Position numbers and translations under genes: made by a program
Notes under the pieces: model-generated
What the model saw: only the letters and a program-made list of their open reading frames with translations
Database searches by the model: none
What the model was told of the DNA's origin: nothing
Part shown: positions 5,057-58,531 of the stretch, in pieces
Position numbering within the stretch: the first letter of the stretch is position 1
Layout of the letters: each line of letters starts with the position of its first letter
NCBI GenBank assembly: GCA_016206785.1
Contig: JACQQV010000039.1
Coordinates: forward strand, 5,978 to 69,977
Length of the DNA stretch: 64,000 nt
Source of the DNA: Candidatus Omnitrophota bacterium
Lineage (GTDB): Bacteria > Omnitrophota > Gorgyraeia > JACQQV01
Direction of reading: 5' to 3'

Positions 5057-5134
5057 GGCATTTTTCTCTAAATCTTTCTTTACGATATCACACAGACCCT
5101 CTTGGGTTCAACTCTTAAACAAGGGCTTAAAGCA

Positions 5135-5161
5135 AAGAGGTGAACCAGGGATTCACCTCTT
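5135..5161 (-). terminator. Hairpin downstream of the small secreted-protein gene
   Basis: 10-bp perfect stem AAGAGGTGAA/TTCACCTCTT with 7-nt loop; weak U-run (UGCUUUAAGC) on the minus strand. Confidence 0.4.
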
Positions 5162-5198
5162 TTGAGAAACCTGCTTAAGATTCTTCCAGCAGGGTCGC

Positions 5199-5552
5199 TT
5201 AACGGGCCCCCTCTCCCGAGAAAACAGTTTCGGGCTCTATAAGGGGTTCCTCATAATTCTTAGGAACTGGAAAGAGAAACGTGCCTGCCTCAACTCCACC
5301 TGCCGTGGTACGAACAGCAGTCTTCGCGCTTCCTTTGATCGGGGCGACCGTTACTCCAAGAAGAGGATTCTCTTTTCCGGTGTTGTACATTTCTTTCAAA
5401 AGCTCGATCCATCCCGTTCCCGCATTAACGACTCCCCGCGTGAGTTTCTGTCCCATCCCTGAGCCGATCTCTTTTGCGGTTGCGGCAAGCGTGGCCGTGG
5501 CAAAAGAAATGGTGAAAAGCACTGCCAGTCCCAGTGTCAAAACTTTCTTCAT
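5199..5552 (-). CDS. Small secreted protein, paralog A (possibly exosortase-associated TIGR04073-like family)
   Basis: Signal peptide ending ATLAATA; conserved blocks KLTRGVVNAGTGWIEL and GTFLFPVP..EPETVF shared with ORF 7370..7711; AAGGGGG SD. Confidence 0.6.
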   Translation of the reverse strand: MKKVLTLGLAVLFTISFATATLAATAKEIGSGMGQKLTRGVVNAGTGWIELLKEMYNTGKENPLLGVTVAPIKGSAKTAVRTTAGGVEAGTFLFPVPKNYEEPLIEPETVFSGEGAR

Positions 5553-5578: not shown

Positions 5579-5878
5579 TTAGACTGCTTTTTTCCGAAGA
5601 AGATCGTCTCTTAAGTCAGTGAAATGTTGCTGATCAAATCCTGCCTTGATGATCTTCTGTTCCAGTTCTTCCTTGGAACGGACACCATCGCCGGTGACAC
5701 CAAGGGCTCTCAGGGCGTTGACCATCGTGTAGATGATCTTGGTCCTGGAAAGCTTGGCCCCCGTCGTGAAGAGCGCATCCTTTCCAAGTTTGTCGAGGAA
5801 ATCAACCTGTTCTCGGTTTAGGAGCGCAATCACCCGATGGGTGACTTGTCTGGTCTCTTTTTCTTGCGGCCGTGTCAT
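5579..5878 (-). CDS. Small protein, putative ribbon-helix-helix DNA-binding fold
   Basis: Start ATG 5878 preceded by AAGGAGGG at 8 nt; HRVIALLNREQVDFLDKL resembles an RHH beta-strand plus helix; function uncertain. Confidence 0.5.
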   Translation of the reverse strand: MTRPQEKETRQVTHRVIALLNREQVDFLDKLGKDALFTTGAKLSRTKIIYTMVNALRALGVTGDGVRSKEELEQKIIKAGFDQQHFTDLRDDLLRKKAV

Positions 5879-5904
5879 GGTTTTCACCCTCCTTAGTTTC
5901 TTTT

Positions 5905-5942
5905 TCAAAATAAAACCGCCTGACTCGAAAGAGTAAGGCGGT
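5905..5942 (-). terminator. Intrinsic terminator forming the expression platform of the candidate riboswitch
   Basis: Stem ACCGCCT(GACTC)/(GAGU)AGGCGGT with GAAA loop, followed on the minus strand by UUUAUUUU; lies between the aptamer and the SD. Confidence 0.6.
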
Positions 5943-5960
5943 AGGCATAAAAAAACTTTT

Positions 5961-6040
5961 CCATTTCGGTAGCCCAGCTGCCCTTTACGGGTCTGTGGCT
6001 TTGCGCCCTACCCTTTCGGAGTAGTTAGCCTTTGTCGTGC
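5961..6040 (-). ncRNA. Candidate GEMM-I (c-di-GMP / cGAMP class) riboswitch aptamer
   Basis: Minus-strand RNA GCACGACAAAGGCUAACUACUCCGAAAGGGUAGGGCGCAAAGCCACAGACCCGUAAAGGGCAGCUGGGCUACCGAAAUGG: GNRA-capped hairpin, GGGCGCAAAGCC junction and GGGCUACCGA block resemble the Vc2 c-di-GMP-I aptamer as recalled. Confidence 0.6.
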
Positions 6041-6051
6041 GGAAAAGCACT

Positions 6052-6101
6052 CAATTGTCAAATACTAAAAAAAGTATACATGAAAAAGTTGCAATTGTCA
6101 A
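6052..6101. repeat. Two direct copies of CAATTGTCAA 40 bp apart, flanking an A7-centred palindrome ATACT-A7-AGTAT
   Basis: 6052-6061 and 6092-6101 are identical; each carries TTGACA on the minus strand; the palindrome 6062-6078 overlaps the -10 element. Confidence 0.6.
6073..6101 (-). promoter_or_regulatory. Sigma70-type promoter TTGACA-17-TATACT driving the riboswitch leader
   Basis: -35 TTGACA (6101..6096), 17-nt spacer, -10 TATACT (6078..6073) on the minus strand; predicted TSS near 6065. Confidence 0.55.
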
Positions 6102-7306
6102 GGGGGAGACTTTAAAAAAGTCTCTCCCGGGACCTTTTTAAGAAGAATCCAGAAGGCGATGGTCATCCAAACCAAAAGACAAAAGAGGGCTCCGCGATAA
6201 TTCCAGGGAAAGTGGGACTTGAAAAGCCAGACAACGCTCCCCCACACCAAGGGTCCTGTGATGGCCGCCAGCCGTCCTATAAGGCCCAGACAACCGAAAA
6301 CCTCTGCGAGATACTCACGAGAGGTGAAACGGATGACCAGCACTCGGCTGGCGACCCAGGTGGATCCCATCACCGTTCCGATGAGTCCCCCCGTGAACCA
6401 AAAGTGCCAACGTAGCGTTGCAAGGATGGCGCAGAGAAATCCAGCACACCATCCACCGAGACTTAAGAGGAGGATCCTTTTTGCCCCGAACCGGTCCGTG
6501 AATATTCCAGCAACGAAAGCGCTTACGATGGCGAATAGGGTTGTCAGGAAGAAGAAAGTAATCATTTCACGGTCATTAAGGCCGATCACTTTTTGGGTAT
6601 AGACCGACATAAACAGGATCACGGGTTGAATCGCCATTAACGAAAAGAAATGGGCTTTAACGAACGGTCGTAAAGGGGTTCCCTTCTTGAAATGTTCCAT
6701 TCCCTTTTTAAATCGTTGAGAAGTCGCGTGGAGGAGGGAGAAAGAGGGGGAAAGAAATGCAGGCGAGAGATCTCGAACAATGAGAAAACATGGAAGAGAA
6801 AAAAGAAGAAAGAAGAGCGCCGTAGGAAGGAAAGCCGCTTGATACCCTTGTGTCAAGACAAAAGGTCTTACAATCGCTAGTCCTATGAGGGTTCCACAGT
6901 ACCCCAGAGAAACACCGAGGCCCGAAACTTTTCCGATTGTTTCTTTTGATCCCACCTCAGGAAGGAGCGCGTCATAGAAAAGAAGACCCAACTGGTAACC
7001 GACATTGGCAATACCAAAAAAGAAAAGGCCCCATCCTAACGAGGAGATGCGGGATAAAAGGGCGGTCGCCATCACACACAAAAATGTAGTAGGAACGAGA
7101 AAAATCATCCGCCGTTGGAGGTGATCTGAAAGCGCTCCCAAAAAGGGCATCAAAAGACTGGCAACAAAGATCGAAACGGATGTTGCGACGGCGTAAAGGA
7201 GATCAGATCCACCGCGATCCTGGGTGACCCAAAGAGGAAAGTATAAGGAAAGGATGTTGATGGAGAAGAGGGTGTTGGCGAGGTCATAGGTTGACCAGGC
7301 CAACAT
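6098..7306 (-). CDS. MFS transporter, Atg22-like family
   Basis: About 12 predicted TM segments; N-terminal AWSTYDLANTLF matches the Atg22-like MFS signature; start moved to ATG 7306 because a terminator hairpin lies inside the longer ORF. Confidence 0.8.
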   Translation of the reverse strand: MLAWSTYDLANTLFSINILSLYFPLWVTQDRGGSDLLYAVATSVSIFVASLLMPFLGALSDHLQRRMIFLVPTTFLCVMATALLSRISSLGWGLFFFGIANVGYQLGLLFYDALLPEVGSKETIGKVSGLGVSLGYCGTLIGLAIVRPFVLTQGYQAAFLPTALFFLLFSLPCFLIVRDLSPAFLSPSFSLLHATSQRFKKGMEHFKKGTPLRPFVKAHFFSLMAIQPVILFMSVYTQKVIGLNDREMITFFFLTTLFAIVSAFVAGIFTDRFGAKRILLLSLGGWCAGFLCAILATLRWHFWFTGGLIGTVMGSTWVASRVLVIRFTSREYLAEVFGCLGLIGRLAAITGPLVWGSVVWLFKSHFPWNYRGALFCLLVWMTIAFWILLKKVPGETFLKSPP

Positions 7307-7369: not shown

Positions 7370-7711
7370 TTAGAAAACGGTTTCGGGATCGAGAGCCGAT
7401 CGGTAATCAGGAGGAATCGGGAAGAGGAACGTTCCCACATCCCACACACCGACGACCTCTCTGGCGACCGTCCAACCGATTCCGAGGGCAACTCCCTTCG
7501 TGGCTCCGGCACCAAATCCCTCGGCCTGCCCAACTTTATGGGGCTGATTAAAAAGTTCAACCCAGCCGGTGGCGACATTGATGATACCCCGTCTGAGCTT
7601 GTTGCCCATTTTCGACATCGTGCTATCCTGCGCATACGTCGGCGACGCAAAGACCGCCAATAGGACAAAAACGGTTATGGCCGCTATAAAGACATTCTTT
7701 TTATTTTTCAT
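7370..7711 (-). CDS. Small secreted protein, paralog B
   Basis: Signal peptide ending PTYAQD; blocks KLRRGIINVATGWVEL and GTFLFPIP..DPETVF shared with 5199..5552; start ATG 7711 preceded by AGGGGGTGA. Confidence 0.6.
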   Translation of the reverse strand: MKNKKNVFIAAITVFVLLAVFASPTYAQDSTMSKMGNKLRRGIINVATGWVELFNQPHKVGQAEGFGAGATKGVALGIGWTVAREVVGVWDVGTFLFPIPPDYRSALDPETVF

Positions 7712-7742
7712 GGTCACTTCACCCCCTTCCATAAGTAGAAAT

Positions 7743-7771
7743 AGTATATCAAAATAAATAACCTTTGTCAA
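7743..7771 (-). promoter_or_regulatory. Sigma70-type promoter TTGACA-17-TATACT for paralog B
   Basis: -35 TTGACA (7771..7766, overlapping the fadD-like stop), 17-nt spacer, -10 TATACT (7748..7743). Confidence 0.5.
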
Positions 7772-17299: not shown

Positions 17300-18331
17300 T
17301 TATTTCTCAGTTGTTTTCTGCTGTATCATCCATTGTTTTTCTAAAAAGGCGTTCAATTTTTCACGGCTGTCATCCGCCATCGACACAAAAGAGATCCCAA
17401 CGCACTCCATGTGGCTTGCGTTCTGGAGATGTTGCCAAACCACTTCTCCGAGGATACGAAGGGGATCGGAGTGAAAAGGCACCTTGAGGCTTAACTGAAA
17501 GAAAGTGGGCAGCGCCTCTGAAGGAGGCCGTTCGATACAAAGACCCCCTGGGGAAATATTCAAAATACGGGCCTTTGTTTTCGTGGTCCGTTGATAAACA
17601 GTTCCGAGTTCCAAAGAAGGGCGGTCCTCAAAAGGAAGGGCATCACAGACAAGACGCGGGTGTTGTCTTTTTTCCAAAAATCGTTCTTCACGAGGGAGAT
17701 GTCCCTGTTCTTGGAGGAAGGTTCCTTTGAGTTCCAAGAGCTTTTGTCCATCGATGAGTTCAATCGCTTCAGGCTCTGAAGTGGTATAGGCAGGATGTGA
17801 AAAGACACCGGTAACGAAGAAATAGCCACCGGTAGCTCCCCTTTTTTGCACCTTCTCGTTAAACTCCTGAATGTCCCGAGAGTCAAAAAATGTTCTCCGA
17901 TTGTCACAACGTACAAGATACCGTTTATGGCGGAGCTGGAAAGAGTCTCCCGTTCCTTCGATTTGAATGCTTGGCCACATCTTCTCGAAAATCCGAAGGC
18001 AAAGTTTTGAAAAATCTTCCTCCTTCATTTCTCTCAACTCTTCAAGGCCCACCCCCTCCACTTTTTTCGACAGCGGGAGATCGCTTTTCTCAGAAGTCTG
18101 AGGAACTGTCCGACGGGATTCCTTCTTCCATAGAAAGCCTGTCCCCATGGGAAGGAAGATCCATGAAAGGAGAGTGAGGAGAAGGGCAAGGACCCTCACG
18201 TGAAGGGGGTAATGGCTTGCTGCGATATTGGCGATAAAAAGGAGGGAGAGAGGAGCCAAAGAAATCCATGCCACTGTAATCACGACGCCCATAGTCAGAA
18301 AATTCTTTCTCAAGAAACGCTTCCCTTCCAA
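17300..18331 (-). CDS. Membrane-anchored protein with Mrr-like restriction-endonuclease-fold domain fused to a C-terminal PilZ domain
   Basis: Two N-terminal TM helices; middle block EDFSKLCLRIFEKMW..GDSFQLRHKRYLVRCDNRR..GGYFFVTGVFS..LIDGQKLLEL matches the Mrr_cat layout; the (Q/E)xK lysine is replaced (RCD); C-terminus has PilZ motifs RLVCD / NISPGG. Confidence 0.6.
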   Translation of the reverse strand: MEGKRFLRKNFLTMGVVITVAWISLAPLSLLFIANIAASHYPLHVRVLALLLTLLSWIFLPMGTGFLWKKESRRTVPQTSEKSDLPLSKKVEGVGLEELREMKEEDFSKLCLRIFEKMWPSIQIEGTGDSFQLRHKRYLVRCDNRRTFFDSRDIQEFNEKVQKRGATGGYFFVTGVFSHPAYTTSEPEAIELIDGQKLLELKGTFLQEQGHLPREERFLEKRQHPRLVCDALPFEDRPSLELGTVYQRTTKTKARILNISPGGLCIERPPSEALPTFFQLSLKVPFHSDPLRILGEVVWQHLQNASHMECVGISFVSMADDSREKLNAFLEKQWMIQQKTTEK

Positions 18332-18714
18332 TTTTTGATATAAGAAACAATTTCTTCCAGGGGGGTCCCTGGGCCGAACAGCCTTCCAACACCCAGCTTG
18401 GAGAGTTTTTTTTGATCTGCTTCGGGAATGATCCCTCCTCCGGTCACCAACATCTCCTTGATTCCTTTTTCTTTCAAAAGCTTCATCATCTTTCGGAACA
18501 CGGTCATATGGGATCCTGTAAGAACACTCACGGCGATGACGTTTGCCTTCTTTTGAATCGCTGCGTTGACGATCATTTCGGGTGTTTGCCGGAGCCCCAG
18601 ATAGATAACGTCCATCCCCCCCTCTTTGAGGGCAGAGGCGACGATCTGAATTCCTCGATCATGTCCGTCTAGACCCGGCTTTGCCAATACAATTTTTTTC
18701 TTTTTTTTCATCAT
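18310..18714 (-). CDS. Methylmalonyl-CoA mutase small (cobalamin-binding) subunit
   Basis: B12-binding DxHxxG motif (DGHDRG), 134 aa. Confidence 0.85.
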   Translation of the reverse strand: MMKKKKKIVLAKPGLDGHDRGIQIVASALKEGGMDVIYLGLRQTPEMIVNAAIQKKANVIAVSVLTGSHMTVFRKMMKLLKEKGIKEMLVTGGGIIPEADQKKLSKLGVGRLFGPGTPLEEIVSYIKNWKGSVS

Positions 18715-34398: not shown

Positions 34399-34473
34399 TG
34401 GAGCGGGTGATGGGACTCGAACCCACGATATTCAGCTTGGGAAGCTGACGTTCTACCACTGAACTACACCCGC
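34399..34473 (-). tRNA. tRNA-Gly (anticodon CCC)
   Basis: Minus-strand cloverleaf GCGGGTG/CACCCGC acceptor, anticodon loop TTCCCAA, T-loop TTCGAGT, discriminator U, encoded CCA. Confidence 0.85.
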
Positions 34474-57976: not shown

Positions 57977-58531
57977 TTAAGACCGATCTTTCGGTTTCAG
58001 AAACTTCCGAAGGCTTGCAAGAAAGCCACTCGGTTTTTCGGCCTTCGGCGGCTTCTCAGGTGGTGCAGAAACGCCTGGCACCTCTTCTTTCGGGGAAGGG
58101 GCCTCGGTCTTTTTTGCCTTTGTCTTTTTGGATTCCTCTTTGGGGGATTCCCTTTTTTCCTTTTTCGGCTTGACCTTTCTCTCTAAAAGTTCAAGGAGGG
58201 CAAGTTCTGCCCCATCGCCCGGACGCACCCGGCTCCGGAGGAGTCGGGTGTACCCTCCCCGATGGGTCTTAAAAAGAGGGGCCACTTCTTTAAAAAGATA
58301 AGAAGTGGTTTCCGCGTTCCCCAATGCCTGGAGGGCACGGCGATACGAGAAGAGGTCTCCTCGAACCCCAAACTGGATGAGCCGGTCGACGAATCGACGG
58401 GCATCCTTGGCCTTGGGGAGGGTGGTCTCGATCCTCCCATTCAGGATGAGCGCCGTTGCAAGATGCCGAACGAGCGCGTCTCGCTCCCCCTTGGCCCGAC
58501 CAAAACGCCGATTACTTCTACGATGTCTCAC
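57977..58531 (-). CDS. rplQ: 50S ribosomal protein L17 with Lys/Glu-rich C-terminal extension
   Basis: [25 protein letters not shown].. L17 N-terminus. Confidence 0.85.

What the first reader, a model, noticed from the sequence alone, without database searches (positions are those of the whole stretch)
5905..6101. Candidate GEMM-I-type cyclic-dinucleotide riboswitch with its own promoter and terminator
On the minus strand a sigma70 promoter TTGACA-17-TATACT (6101..6073) is followed by an ~80-nt element (6040..5961). It reads GCACGACAAAGGCUAACUACUCCGAAAGGGUAGGGCGCAAAGCCACAGACCCGUAAAGGGCAGCUGGGCUACCGAAAUGG. It has a GNRA-capped hairpin (CUACUCC-GAAA-GGGUAG), a GGGCGCAAAGCC junction and a 3' GGGCUACCGA block. 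These line up with the Vibrio Vc2 c-di-GMP-I aptamer as I recall it (..CGAAAG..GGGACGCAAAGCC..GCGGGGUUACCGAUGG). A terminator hairpin with a U-tract (5942..5905) and the SD AAGGAGGG sit just before ATG 5878. This is the classic transcription-attenuation riboswitch layout. It controls an RHH-like small protein plus a small secreted protein. The same window holds three PilZ proteins and an HD-GYP phosphodiesterase. I cannot tell by eye whether the ligand-selecting position (G20 versus A20) favours c-di-GMP or 3',3'-cGAMP.
Basis: partly seen in the sequence, partly recalled or inferred. Interest (0 to 1): 0.78.

Follow-up and report, generated by a model that had tools for sequence, protein, structure and literature searches.

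The report
c-di-GMP riboswitch controlling small regulator gene
This is a genuine, ordinary member of the well-known c-di-GMP-I (GEMM-I) riboswitch class in an Omnitrophota genome, most likely shutting off transcription when c-di-GMP is high; the more interesting part is the uncharacterised small protein family it controls, which carries this riboswitch in almost every relative examined.

Summary
Rfam places a c-di-GMP-I aptamer at 6040..5965 (minus strand): 56.6 bits against a gathering score of 35, E 2e-8.

The three ligand-contact positions are canonical (G20=G6030, A47=A6002, C92=C5969). This predicts c-di-GMP rather than cGAMP.

The terminator's 5' arm plus loop can form a 15-bp helix with the GAAA loop, the 3' strand of that hairpin and the junction. 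This antiterminator excludes the aptamer fold, so the predicted logic is an OFF switch: ligand bound, terminator forms. Direction is inferred from folding and comparison, not measured.

Verdict: a new member of a known kind, with modest interest.

The parts
6096..6101 (-). -35 hexamer TTGACA, part of TTGACAATTG at 6101..6092; it overlaps the end of the upstream MFS transporter gene
   Evidence: Promoter scan, 11 of 12 matches; conserved in close relatives.
6073..6078 (-). -10 hexamer TATACT; the predicted transcription start is about A6066
   Evidence: conserved. TATACT is present in 35 of 64 homologous leaders. The start site is inferred from spacing only.
6052..6061 (-). Second copy of TTGACAATTG, in the transcribed leader between the predicted start and the aptamer; a conserved element of unknown role
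   Evidence: There are two exact copies in the window, both in this leader. TTGACA, GACAAT and ACAATT are the most enriched 6-mers upstream of homologous aptamers (47, 41 and 36 of 64, against 15, 9 and 8 of 512 controls), peaking 20-30 nt before the aptamer.
5955..6048 (-). Full aptamer domain including an extended outer stem P1 (GCUUUUCCG 6048..6040 pairs with UGGAAAAGU 5963..5955)
   Evidence: RNAfold of the growing transcript; the outer stem is 84.6% paired across 9 leaders, with one-sided changes only.
5965..6040 (-). c-di-GMP-I aptamer core (the Rfam match). Contact positions: G20=G6030, A47=A6002, C92=C5969
   Evidence: RF01051 56.6 bits against GA 35; RF03167 57.6 against GA 59; own model R1 70.9 bits.
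6008..6024 (-). P1b hairpin CUACuCC-GAAA-GGGUAG with a GNRA loop
   Evidence: All four outer pairs show changes on both sides among close relatives; six pairs covary in 56 aptamers.
5971..6000 (-). P2 hairpin (AGCC-A-CAG-A-CCC GUAAA GGG-CAG-CUG-GGCU); it is short and lacks the tetraloop-receptor internal loop
   Evidence: The Rfam alignment shows the receptor positions deleted; covariation. Relatives L090 and L092 retain CCUAAA...UAUGG.
6004..6018 (-). Antiterminator 5' strand CGAAAGGGUAGGGCG (GAAA loop, P1b 3' strand and junction)
   Evidence: MFE of the whole leader; 88.1% paired in register across 9 leaders against 58% or less when slid.
5926..5940 (-). Antiterminator 3' strand CGCCUUACUCUUUCG, which is the terminator's 5' arm plus loop
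   Evidence: Duplex -22.1 kcal/mol against -11.6 for shuffles, p=0.003.
5907..5942 (-). Intrinsic terminator: stem-loop 5942..5915 and U-tract 5914..5907
   Evidence: RNAfold gives -16.8 kcal/mol for the hairpin and -19.6 for the surrounding 63-nt segment. 98% paired, with 5 pairs changed on both sides, in 9 leaders. 63 of 70 homologous leaders have a hairpin of -10 kcal/mol or better followed by a U-tract.
5887..5894 (-). Shine-Dalgarno AAGGAGGG, 8 nt before the ATG
   Evidence: Read directly from the sequence.
5579..5878 (-). ORF1, 99 aa: an uncharacterised family with core HRVIALLNREQVDFLDKLGKDALFSTGxKLSRT; the conserved cargo of the riboswitch
5199..5552 (-). ORF2, 117 aa, with a signal-peptide-like N-terminus: TIGR04073 exosortase-system-associated family
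   Evidence: NCBIfam 62.8 bits against cut-off 50. A TIGR04073 gene follows ORF1 homologues in 15 of 74 loci. It is absent after the ORF1 homologue in L081 and L082.
5134..5162 (-). Terminator-like hairpin after ORF2; the likely 3' end of a two-gene unit
   Evidence: RNAfold -17.4 kcal/mol, z -2.77; the U-run is partly inside the stem, so this is tentative.

Best explanation
A sigma-70-type promoter (6101..6073) drives a leader that starts near 6066 and folds into a canonical c-di-GMP-I aptamer (6048..5955). The aptamer's P1b hairpin and junction can instead pair with the terminator's 5' arm and loop (6018..6004 with 5940..5926). Without ligand this antiterminator wins once it has been transcribed, and RNA polymerase reads into ORF1 (an RHH-like small protein) and ORF2 (a secreted TIGR04073 protein). 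When c-di-GMP is bound, the aptamer is locked, the 5' arm is free to close the terminator hairpin (5942..5915 plus U-tract), and transcription stops. The element is therefore a transcriptional OFF switch. Shown here: the identity of the aptamer, its covariation, the conservation of the terminator and the competing pairing. Inferred: ligand binding, the direction of regulation and the transcription start.
For: Rfam RF01051 scores 56.6 bits against GA 35, E 2.2e-8. G20, A47 and C92 are canonical, and across 56 related aptamers position 20 is G in 55 while CGCAAA and CC are invariant. 16 of 20 consensus pairs carry compensatory changes. Aptamer plus terminator are 94.6% paired with 13 double-changed pairs in 9 close leaders, against 52% or less when slid. 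In growing-transcript folds, the aptamer is the MFE at 113 nt (-31.2 kcal/mol) and the antiterminator at 141 nt (-45.6). For the full leader the antiterminator scores -51.4 and aptamer plus terminator -49.7, close enough for ligand binding to decide. The antiterminator is 88.1% paired in register. The same complementarity between the terminator 5' arm and the P1b 3' strand plus junction beats shuffles at p<0.05 in 30 of 62 homologous leaders. The terminator does not overlap the aptamer, so the two can coexist.
Against: No binding or transcription experiment exists. The antiterminator shows little true covariation: one pair changed on both sides, the rest one-sided wobble changes. A swap control between loci was uninformative. 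About half of the homologous leaders do not show this design, and some have terminators that abut the aptamer. The energies are thermodynamic, ignore tertiary contacts and depend on the assumed 5' end. The missing tetraloop receptor could weaken the fold or the ligand affinity.
Confidence: 0.75

Rival explanations
1. The aptamer is selective for 3',3'-cGAMP (GEMM-Ib type) or is promiscuous, rather than specific for c-di-GMP.
For: It is the same fold class, and a few related leaders do carry A at position 20 (L003, L034, L005). The shortened P2 is atypical.
Against: Position 20 is G here and in 55 of 56 related aptamers, with A47 and C92 intact. The link between A20 and cGAMP selectivity is from my own knowledge of Kellenberger 2015 and Nelson 2015; PMC7266159 confirms only that rare variants sense c-AMP-GMP. 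The window encodes PilZ and HD-GYP-type proteins, which belong to c-di-GMP signalling.
Confidence: 0.07
2. The switch is ON, or acts mainly on translation: ligand binding increases expression, or the SD is the controlled element.
For: Both polarities are known for this class. About half of the homologous leaders lack the antiterminator signature of this window.
Against: The terminator lies wholly outside the aptamer and does not compete with it, whereas the only strong competitor of the aptamer is a helix that removes the terminator's 5' arm. The SD at 5894..5887 is not sequestered in any predicted state.
Confidence: 0.15
3. Expression is set mainly at the DNA level. The two TTGACAATTG copies that flank the -10 are operators for a repressor, possibly ORF1 itself, and the riboswitch is a secondary layer.
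For: The leader copy is conserved well beyond this lineage and sits downstream of the -10. ORF1's model resembles RHH DNA-binding folds, and the domain occupies the output position of response regulators.
Against: Nothing shows binding. The motif resembles an ordinary -35 and could reflect promoter grammar. With one mismatch allowed, its count in the window is at chance. This layer would add to the riboswitch rather than replace it.
Confidence: 0.2

Closest known systems
c-di-GMP-I riboswitch (GEMM-I, Rfam RF01051), e.g. Vibrio cholerae Vc2
   Same: The three-helix architecture, the GNRA-capped P1b, the conserved GGC...GCAAAGCC...AGC..GGGCU.CC core, contact positions G20, A47 and C92, and the C44/G83 positions. 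It scores above the family threshold. PMC11705072 describes the roles of G20 and C92, the tetraloop/receptor contact and the C44-G83 pair.
   Different: P2 is short and lacks the 11-nt-type tetraloop receptor present in Vc2 and in relatives L090 and L092. The outer stem is extended to 9 bp.
c-di-GMP-I-GGC variant (Rfam RF03167)
   Same: The same short P2 shape. This model gives the best clan score here (57.6 bits) and is the top model for many of the homologous leaders.
   Different: The score is below its GA of 59. Where that model's consensus reads GCGAA, this sequence reads GCAAA, which is the canonical A at position 47. That the name 'GGC' denotes positions 20, 47 and 92 is my recollection; I could not verify it in the paper library.
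Terminator-based OFF riboswitches of this class (e.g. C. difficile Cd1 upstream of the flagellar operon)
   Same: An aptamer followed by an intrinsic terminator upstream of the controlled operon. PMC11477304 lists a c-di-GMP-I element on the early flagellar operon and on several small hypothetical proteins.
   Different: That Cd1 is an OFF switch is from my own knowledge. Here the antiterminator invades the P1b hairpin and junction rather than only the outer stem, and the cargo is a different gene family.
Ribbon-helix-helix regulators (CopG, MetJ, NikR, ParD; also CdbA, which I recall from memory to be a c-di-GMP-binding RHH protein of Myxococcus xanthus)
   Different: There is no sequence or profile similarity. 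The inter-helix loop is longer, there are two extra C-terminal helices, and the strand is not predicted in the monomer models.

Membership tests
c-di-GMP-I riboswitch (RF01051) | Covariance-model score at or above the curated gathering score | tested here: met
   56.6 bits against 35, E 2.2e-8, full-length match.
c-di-GMP-I riboswitch (RF01051) | P1b and P2 helices supported by compensatory substitutions in homologues | tested here: met
   16 of 20 pairs have double changes in 56 aptamers. In 9 close leaders, 13 pairs have double changes and 94.6% of cells are paired, against 52% or less when slid.
c-di-GMP-I riboswitch (RF01051) | Ligand-contact nucleotides G20, A47 and C92 | tested here: met
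   G6030, A6002 and C5969 by alignment to the model. Across 56 aptamers these columns are invariant, or nearly invariant for position 20.
c-di-GMP-I riboswitch (RF01051) | GNRA tetraloop on P1b docking into a tetraloop receptor in P2 (type 1 architecture) | tested here: not met
   The GAAA loop is present, but the receptor internal loop is deleted. The receptor is present in L090 and L092. This feature varies within the class, so it does not exclude membership.
c-di-GMP-I riboswitch (RF01051) | Binds c-di-GMP and changes gene expression | not testable with these tools
   Needs in-line probing or ITC, plus transcription assays.
c-di-GMP-I-GGC variant (RF03167) | Score at or above GA 59, and GCGAA where the canonical class has GCAAA | tested here: not met
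   57.6 bits; the sequence reads GCAAA.
c-AMP-GMP riboswitch (GEMM-Ib) | A at position 20 | tested here: not met
   G6030.
Intrinsic-terminator expression platform | G+C-rich hairpin followed by a U-tract, conserved, with a mutually exclusive antiterminator | tested here: met
   Hairpin -16.8 kcal/mol followed by UUUAUUUU. It is 98% paired with 5 double-changed pairs. The antiterminator is the MFE of the leader and is 88% paired in register. The simple scan tool did not list the hairpin.
Ribbon-helix-helix superfamily (ORF1) | Strand-helix-helix fold that dimerises into a two-stranded sheet; profile similarity to RHH families | tested here: inconclusive
TIGR04073 exosortase-system-associated family (ORF2) | NCBIfam score above the curated cut-off | tested here: met
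   62.8 bits against 50.

The most novel reading that the evidence does not exclude
ORF1 founds an undescribed family of RHH-like transcription factors that is a principal output of c-di-GMP signalling in Omnitrophota. On this reading the messenger controls the family twice. The stand-alone form is controlled at the RNA level, through a GEMM-I OFF riboswitch found upstream of about 95% of stand-alone genes. Other members are controlled at the protein level, through C-terminal PilZ fusions, or by phosphorylation through REC fusions. The protein would autoregulate by binding the conserved TTGACAATT/CAATTG elements that flank its own promoter.
Probability: 0.2. Interest if true: 0.6.

Novelty: new member of a known kind. 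Interest (0 to 1): 0.35.

Why it matters
The riboswitch itself adds nothing new to RNA biology, because it is found by the standard Rfam model. Its value is as a marker. It ties an unannotated protein family of 318 clusters at 50% identity, almost confined to the uncultured phylum Omnitrophota, to c-di-GMP signalling in three independent ways: the riboswitch, PilZ fusions, and neighbouring GGDEF, PilB/MshEN and PilZ genes. That gives a concrete, testable entry point into what c-di-GMP controls in a phylum with no genetic system. It also predicts that the family is expressed when c-di-GMP is low.

Tried and rejected
(1) Swap control. I paired each aptamer with the terminators of other loci. Own pairs were not clearly better (median rank 25 of 62), because many loci share the same GGGGCGC/GCGCCCC motif. 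I replaced it with a shuffle control.

(2) The idea that PilZ-fused homologues lack the riboswitch while stand-alone ones have it. This is rejected on thin data: of three fusion loci, L094 has a strong aptamer (88.8 bits), L095 a weak one (20.8 bits) and L093 none.

(3) The leader copy of TTGACA as the -35 of a second promoter. There is no acceptable -10 at 16-18 nt, either in the window or in the relatives (by inspection).

(4) Sequence-level tests of RHH membership. Foldseek on the first, poorer model also gave nothing.

(6) My regular expressions for TIGR04073 and PilZ in downstream ORFs found nothing. I replaced them with phmmer and NCBIfam.

(7) P0258, a 1638-aa repeat protein among the profile hits, looks like a spurious low-complexity match.

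(8) Paper searches for TIGR04073, for Omnitrophota with riboswitch, and for the GGC variant turned up nothing that describes this locus or family.

Full report
OBSERVATION. An Rfam scan of the whole window at gathering thresholds returns two hits. One is a tRNA. The other is RF01051 c-di-GMP-I at 6040..5965 (-), at 56.6 bits against a gathering score of 35, E 2.2e-8, matching the full model. A permissive scan of 5700..6300 shows that the best-scoring member of the clan is the RF03167 'GGC' variant, at 57.6 bits and just under its gathering score of 59. The promoter TTGACA-17-TATACT (6101..6073) matches 11 of 12 positions. The simple terminator scan missed the hairpin because of a 1x1 mismatch. 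RNAfold gives ACCGCCUuACUC-UUUC-GAGUcAGGCGGU (5942..5915), at -16.8 kcal/mol for the hairpin alone and -19.6 for the surrounding 63-nt segment, followed by UUUAUUUU. SD AAGGAGGG (5894..5887) precedes ATG 5878. The 99-aa product is identical to a deposited hypothetical protein of a Candidatus Omnitrophica MAG. The context claim is also correct: three PilZ-domain proteins and a GAF+HD_5 protein lie in the window.

LIGAND. Aligned to the family model, the three positions that contact the ligand in Vc2 are G6030 (G20), A6002 (A47) and C5969 (C92). PMC11705072 describes the roles of G20 and C92; the role of A47 is from my own knowledge of the crystal structures. In an alignment of 56 related aptamers, the G20 column is G in 55, and CGCAAA and the CC of the 3' block are invariant. 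The RF03167 consensus differs from the canonical class by reading GCGAA instead of GCAAA, and this sequence has GCAAA. The resemblance to that model therefore comes from the short P2, not from the binding pocket. c-di-GMP is the predicted ligand, and cGAMP selectivity is unlikely.

STRUCTURE AND COVARIATION. ORF1 homologues (154 by word-indexed search) were used to fetch 80 species-representative loci. Nearly all are Omnitrophota MAGs, some of them labelled Planctomycetes in the records. Eight close relatives were also fetched. RNAalifold on the 56 aptamers recovers the GC clamp, P1b and P2, and 16 of 20 pairs carry compensatory changes. Among nine close leaders, the aptamer and terminator are 94.6% paired with 13 double-changed pairs, against 52% or less when partners are slid by one to three columns. 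An outer stem extended to 9 bp (6048..6040 with 5963..5955) forms in folds of the growing transcript. It is kept in relatives mostly through one-sided changes. P2 is short and lacks the tetraloop-receptor loop, while relatives L090 and L092 still carry CCUAAA...UAUGG. The GNRA loop is kept throughout.

MECHANISM. The minimum-energy fold of the whole leader is not aptamer plus terminator. It is a 15-bp helix between CGAAAGGGUAGGGCG (6018..6004: the GAAA loop, the P1b 3' strand and the junction) and CGCCUUACUCUUUCG (5940..5926: the terminator's 5' arm and loop). In growing-transcript folds, the aptamer is the MFE at 113 nt (-31.2 kcal/mol). The antiterminator takes over at 141 nt (-45.6), before the terminator's 3' arm exists. 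For the full leader the two states lie 1.7 kcal/mol apart, at -51.4 and -49.7. The terminator does not overlap the aptamer, whereas the antiterminator destroys P1b. Stabilising the aptamer with ligand should therefore release the 5' arm and cause termination, which makes this an OFF switch.

Comparative support for this is moderate. The helix is 88.1% paired in register across nine leaders, against 58% or less when slid, but only one pair changes on both sides. In 30 of 62 homologous leaders, the complementarity between the terminator 5' arm and the P1b 3' strand plus junction beats shuffled arms at p<0.05, and the window itself scores p=0.003. A locus-swap control was uninformative. The direction of regulation therefore remains an inference.

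THE CARGO. ORF1 has no Pfam, NCBIfam or PDB sequence match. An exhaustive profile search finds 318 cluster representatives. Rfam finds a GEMM-I-clan aptamer directly upstream of the homologue in 69 of the 80 genome loci. A lineage-specific model adds seven more, making 76 of 80, and finds aptamers upstream in 68 of 80 metagenome loci; six of the twelve misses have less than 250 nt of upstream sequence. All 80 genome loci encode short, stand-alone proteins.

Among the longer homologues, 26 of 36 carry a C-terminal PilZ domain with intact RxxxR and D/NxSxxG motifs, and three carry an N-terminal receiver domain. The genes immediately downstream in other loci include TIGR04073 (15 of 74), HAMP-GGDEF cyclases (5), PilB-type ATPases (3-4, one with MshEN) and PilZ (2).

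ORF2 is a TIGR04073 protein (62.8 bits against 50). It is absent from the closest relatives L081 and L082, so ORF1 is the conserved target. A hairpin after ORF2 (5162..5134; -17.4 kcal/mol, z -2.8) may end the unit.

AN UNEXPECTED CONSERVED LEADER ELEMENT. TTGACAATTG occurs twice, once as the -35 (6101..6092) and again at 6061..6052, just downstream of the predicted start. Across 64 homologous leaders, TTGACA, GACAAT and ACAATT are the most enriched 6-mers (47, 41 and 36 of 64, against 15, 9 and 8 of 512 control windows). They peak 20-30 nt before the aptamer, downstream of the TATACT -10. No usable -10 follows the motif, so a second promoter is unlikely. An operator for a repressor, perhaps ORF1 itself, is possible, as is an RNA-level element. 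Neither was tested.

COMPARISON AND VERDICT. This is a bona fide member of the c-di-GMP-I class with a canonical binding pocket, the short-P2 architecture and a terminator/antiterminator platform predicted to switch OFF. It is a new member of a known kind. The paper library held nothing on this locus, on the ORF1 family, or on riboswitches in Omnitrophota. Interest in the riboswitch as such is modest. It is raised somewhat by the near-obligate link to an uncharacterised protein family that is tied to c-di-GMP signalling.

Noticed in passing
window 6052..6061 (-), and leaders of L001-L080: A conserved TTGACAATT(A/T)GG element lies between the promoter -10 and the aptamer in most homologous leaders. 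A second CAATT(G) often sits at or just upstream of the -35: 36 of 64 leaders have two or more, against 17 of 512 controls. It could be an operator or an RNA element.
   Followed up: partly
window 17300..18658 (-): A 452-aa protein combines an Mrr_cat restriction-endonuclease-like domain with a C-terminal PilZ domain (Pfam E 6e-10 and 6e-11). This is an unusual pairing of a nuclease fold with a c-di-GMP receptor domain.
   Followed up: no
proteins P0142, P0143, P0151, P0158, P0193 and others; P0234, P0240: The ORF1 domain occurs fused to a C-terminal PilZ domain (26 of 36 long homologues) and, more rarely, behind an N-terminal receiver domain, in the position of a response-regulator output domain.
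   Followed up: partly
L003, L034, L005 (aptamers upstream of ORF1 homologues): These aptamers have A instead of G at the position equivalent to G20 (AAGAGCAAAC, TAAGAGCAAAC, GAAGCAAAAC). They may be cGAMP-type variants within the same gene family context.
   Followed up: no
L062 (2479-2648 -, 2809-2908 +, 3245-3330 +), L072 (three hits), L071 (3811-3906 -), L165, L107/L108: Several loci carry two or three GEMM-I aptamers around the ORF1 homologue, including one after it and one on the opposite strand.
   Followed up: no
L091 (P1b); L016, L042, L047, L048, L052 (junction): L091 has an insertion of about 36 nt inside P1b. Five leaders have an extra hairpin inserted between GGGCG and CAAAGCC. 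These aptamers still pass the Rfam gathering score, at about 35-37 bits for the five.
   Followed up: no
L090:1331-1432, L092:1061-1162: These close relatives keep a CCUAAA...UAUGG tetraloop-receptor motif in P2, whereas the window's lineage has lost it but kept a GNRA loop (GAAA, GUAA, GAGA or GGAA).
   Followed up: partly
window 7370..7771 (-): A second TIGR04073 paralogue (77.2 bits) lies upstream of the MFS transporter gene, with no riboswitch. The order AMP-binding, TIGR04073, MFS, riboswitch, ORF1, TIGR04073, TusA is conserved in close relatives.
   Followed up: partly
window 58037..58133 (-): The lineage-specific aptamer model gives a weak hit here (13.7 bits, E 0.03). It is probably chance.
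   Followed up: no
window 6102..6128: A perfect-stem inverted repeat, GGGAGAGACUUUUUUAAAGUCUCCCCC, lies at the very end of the MFS gene and abuts the -35. It may terminate or insulate the upstream transcript.
   Followed up: no
window 34402..34473 (-): A tRNA gene (Rfam 74.6 bits).
   Followed up: no
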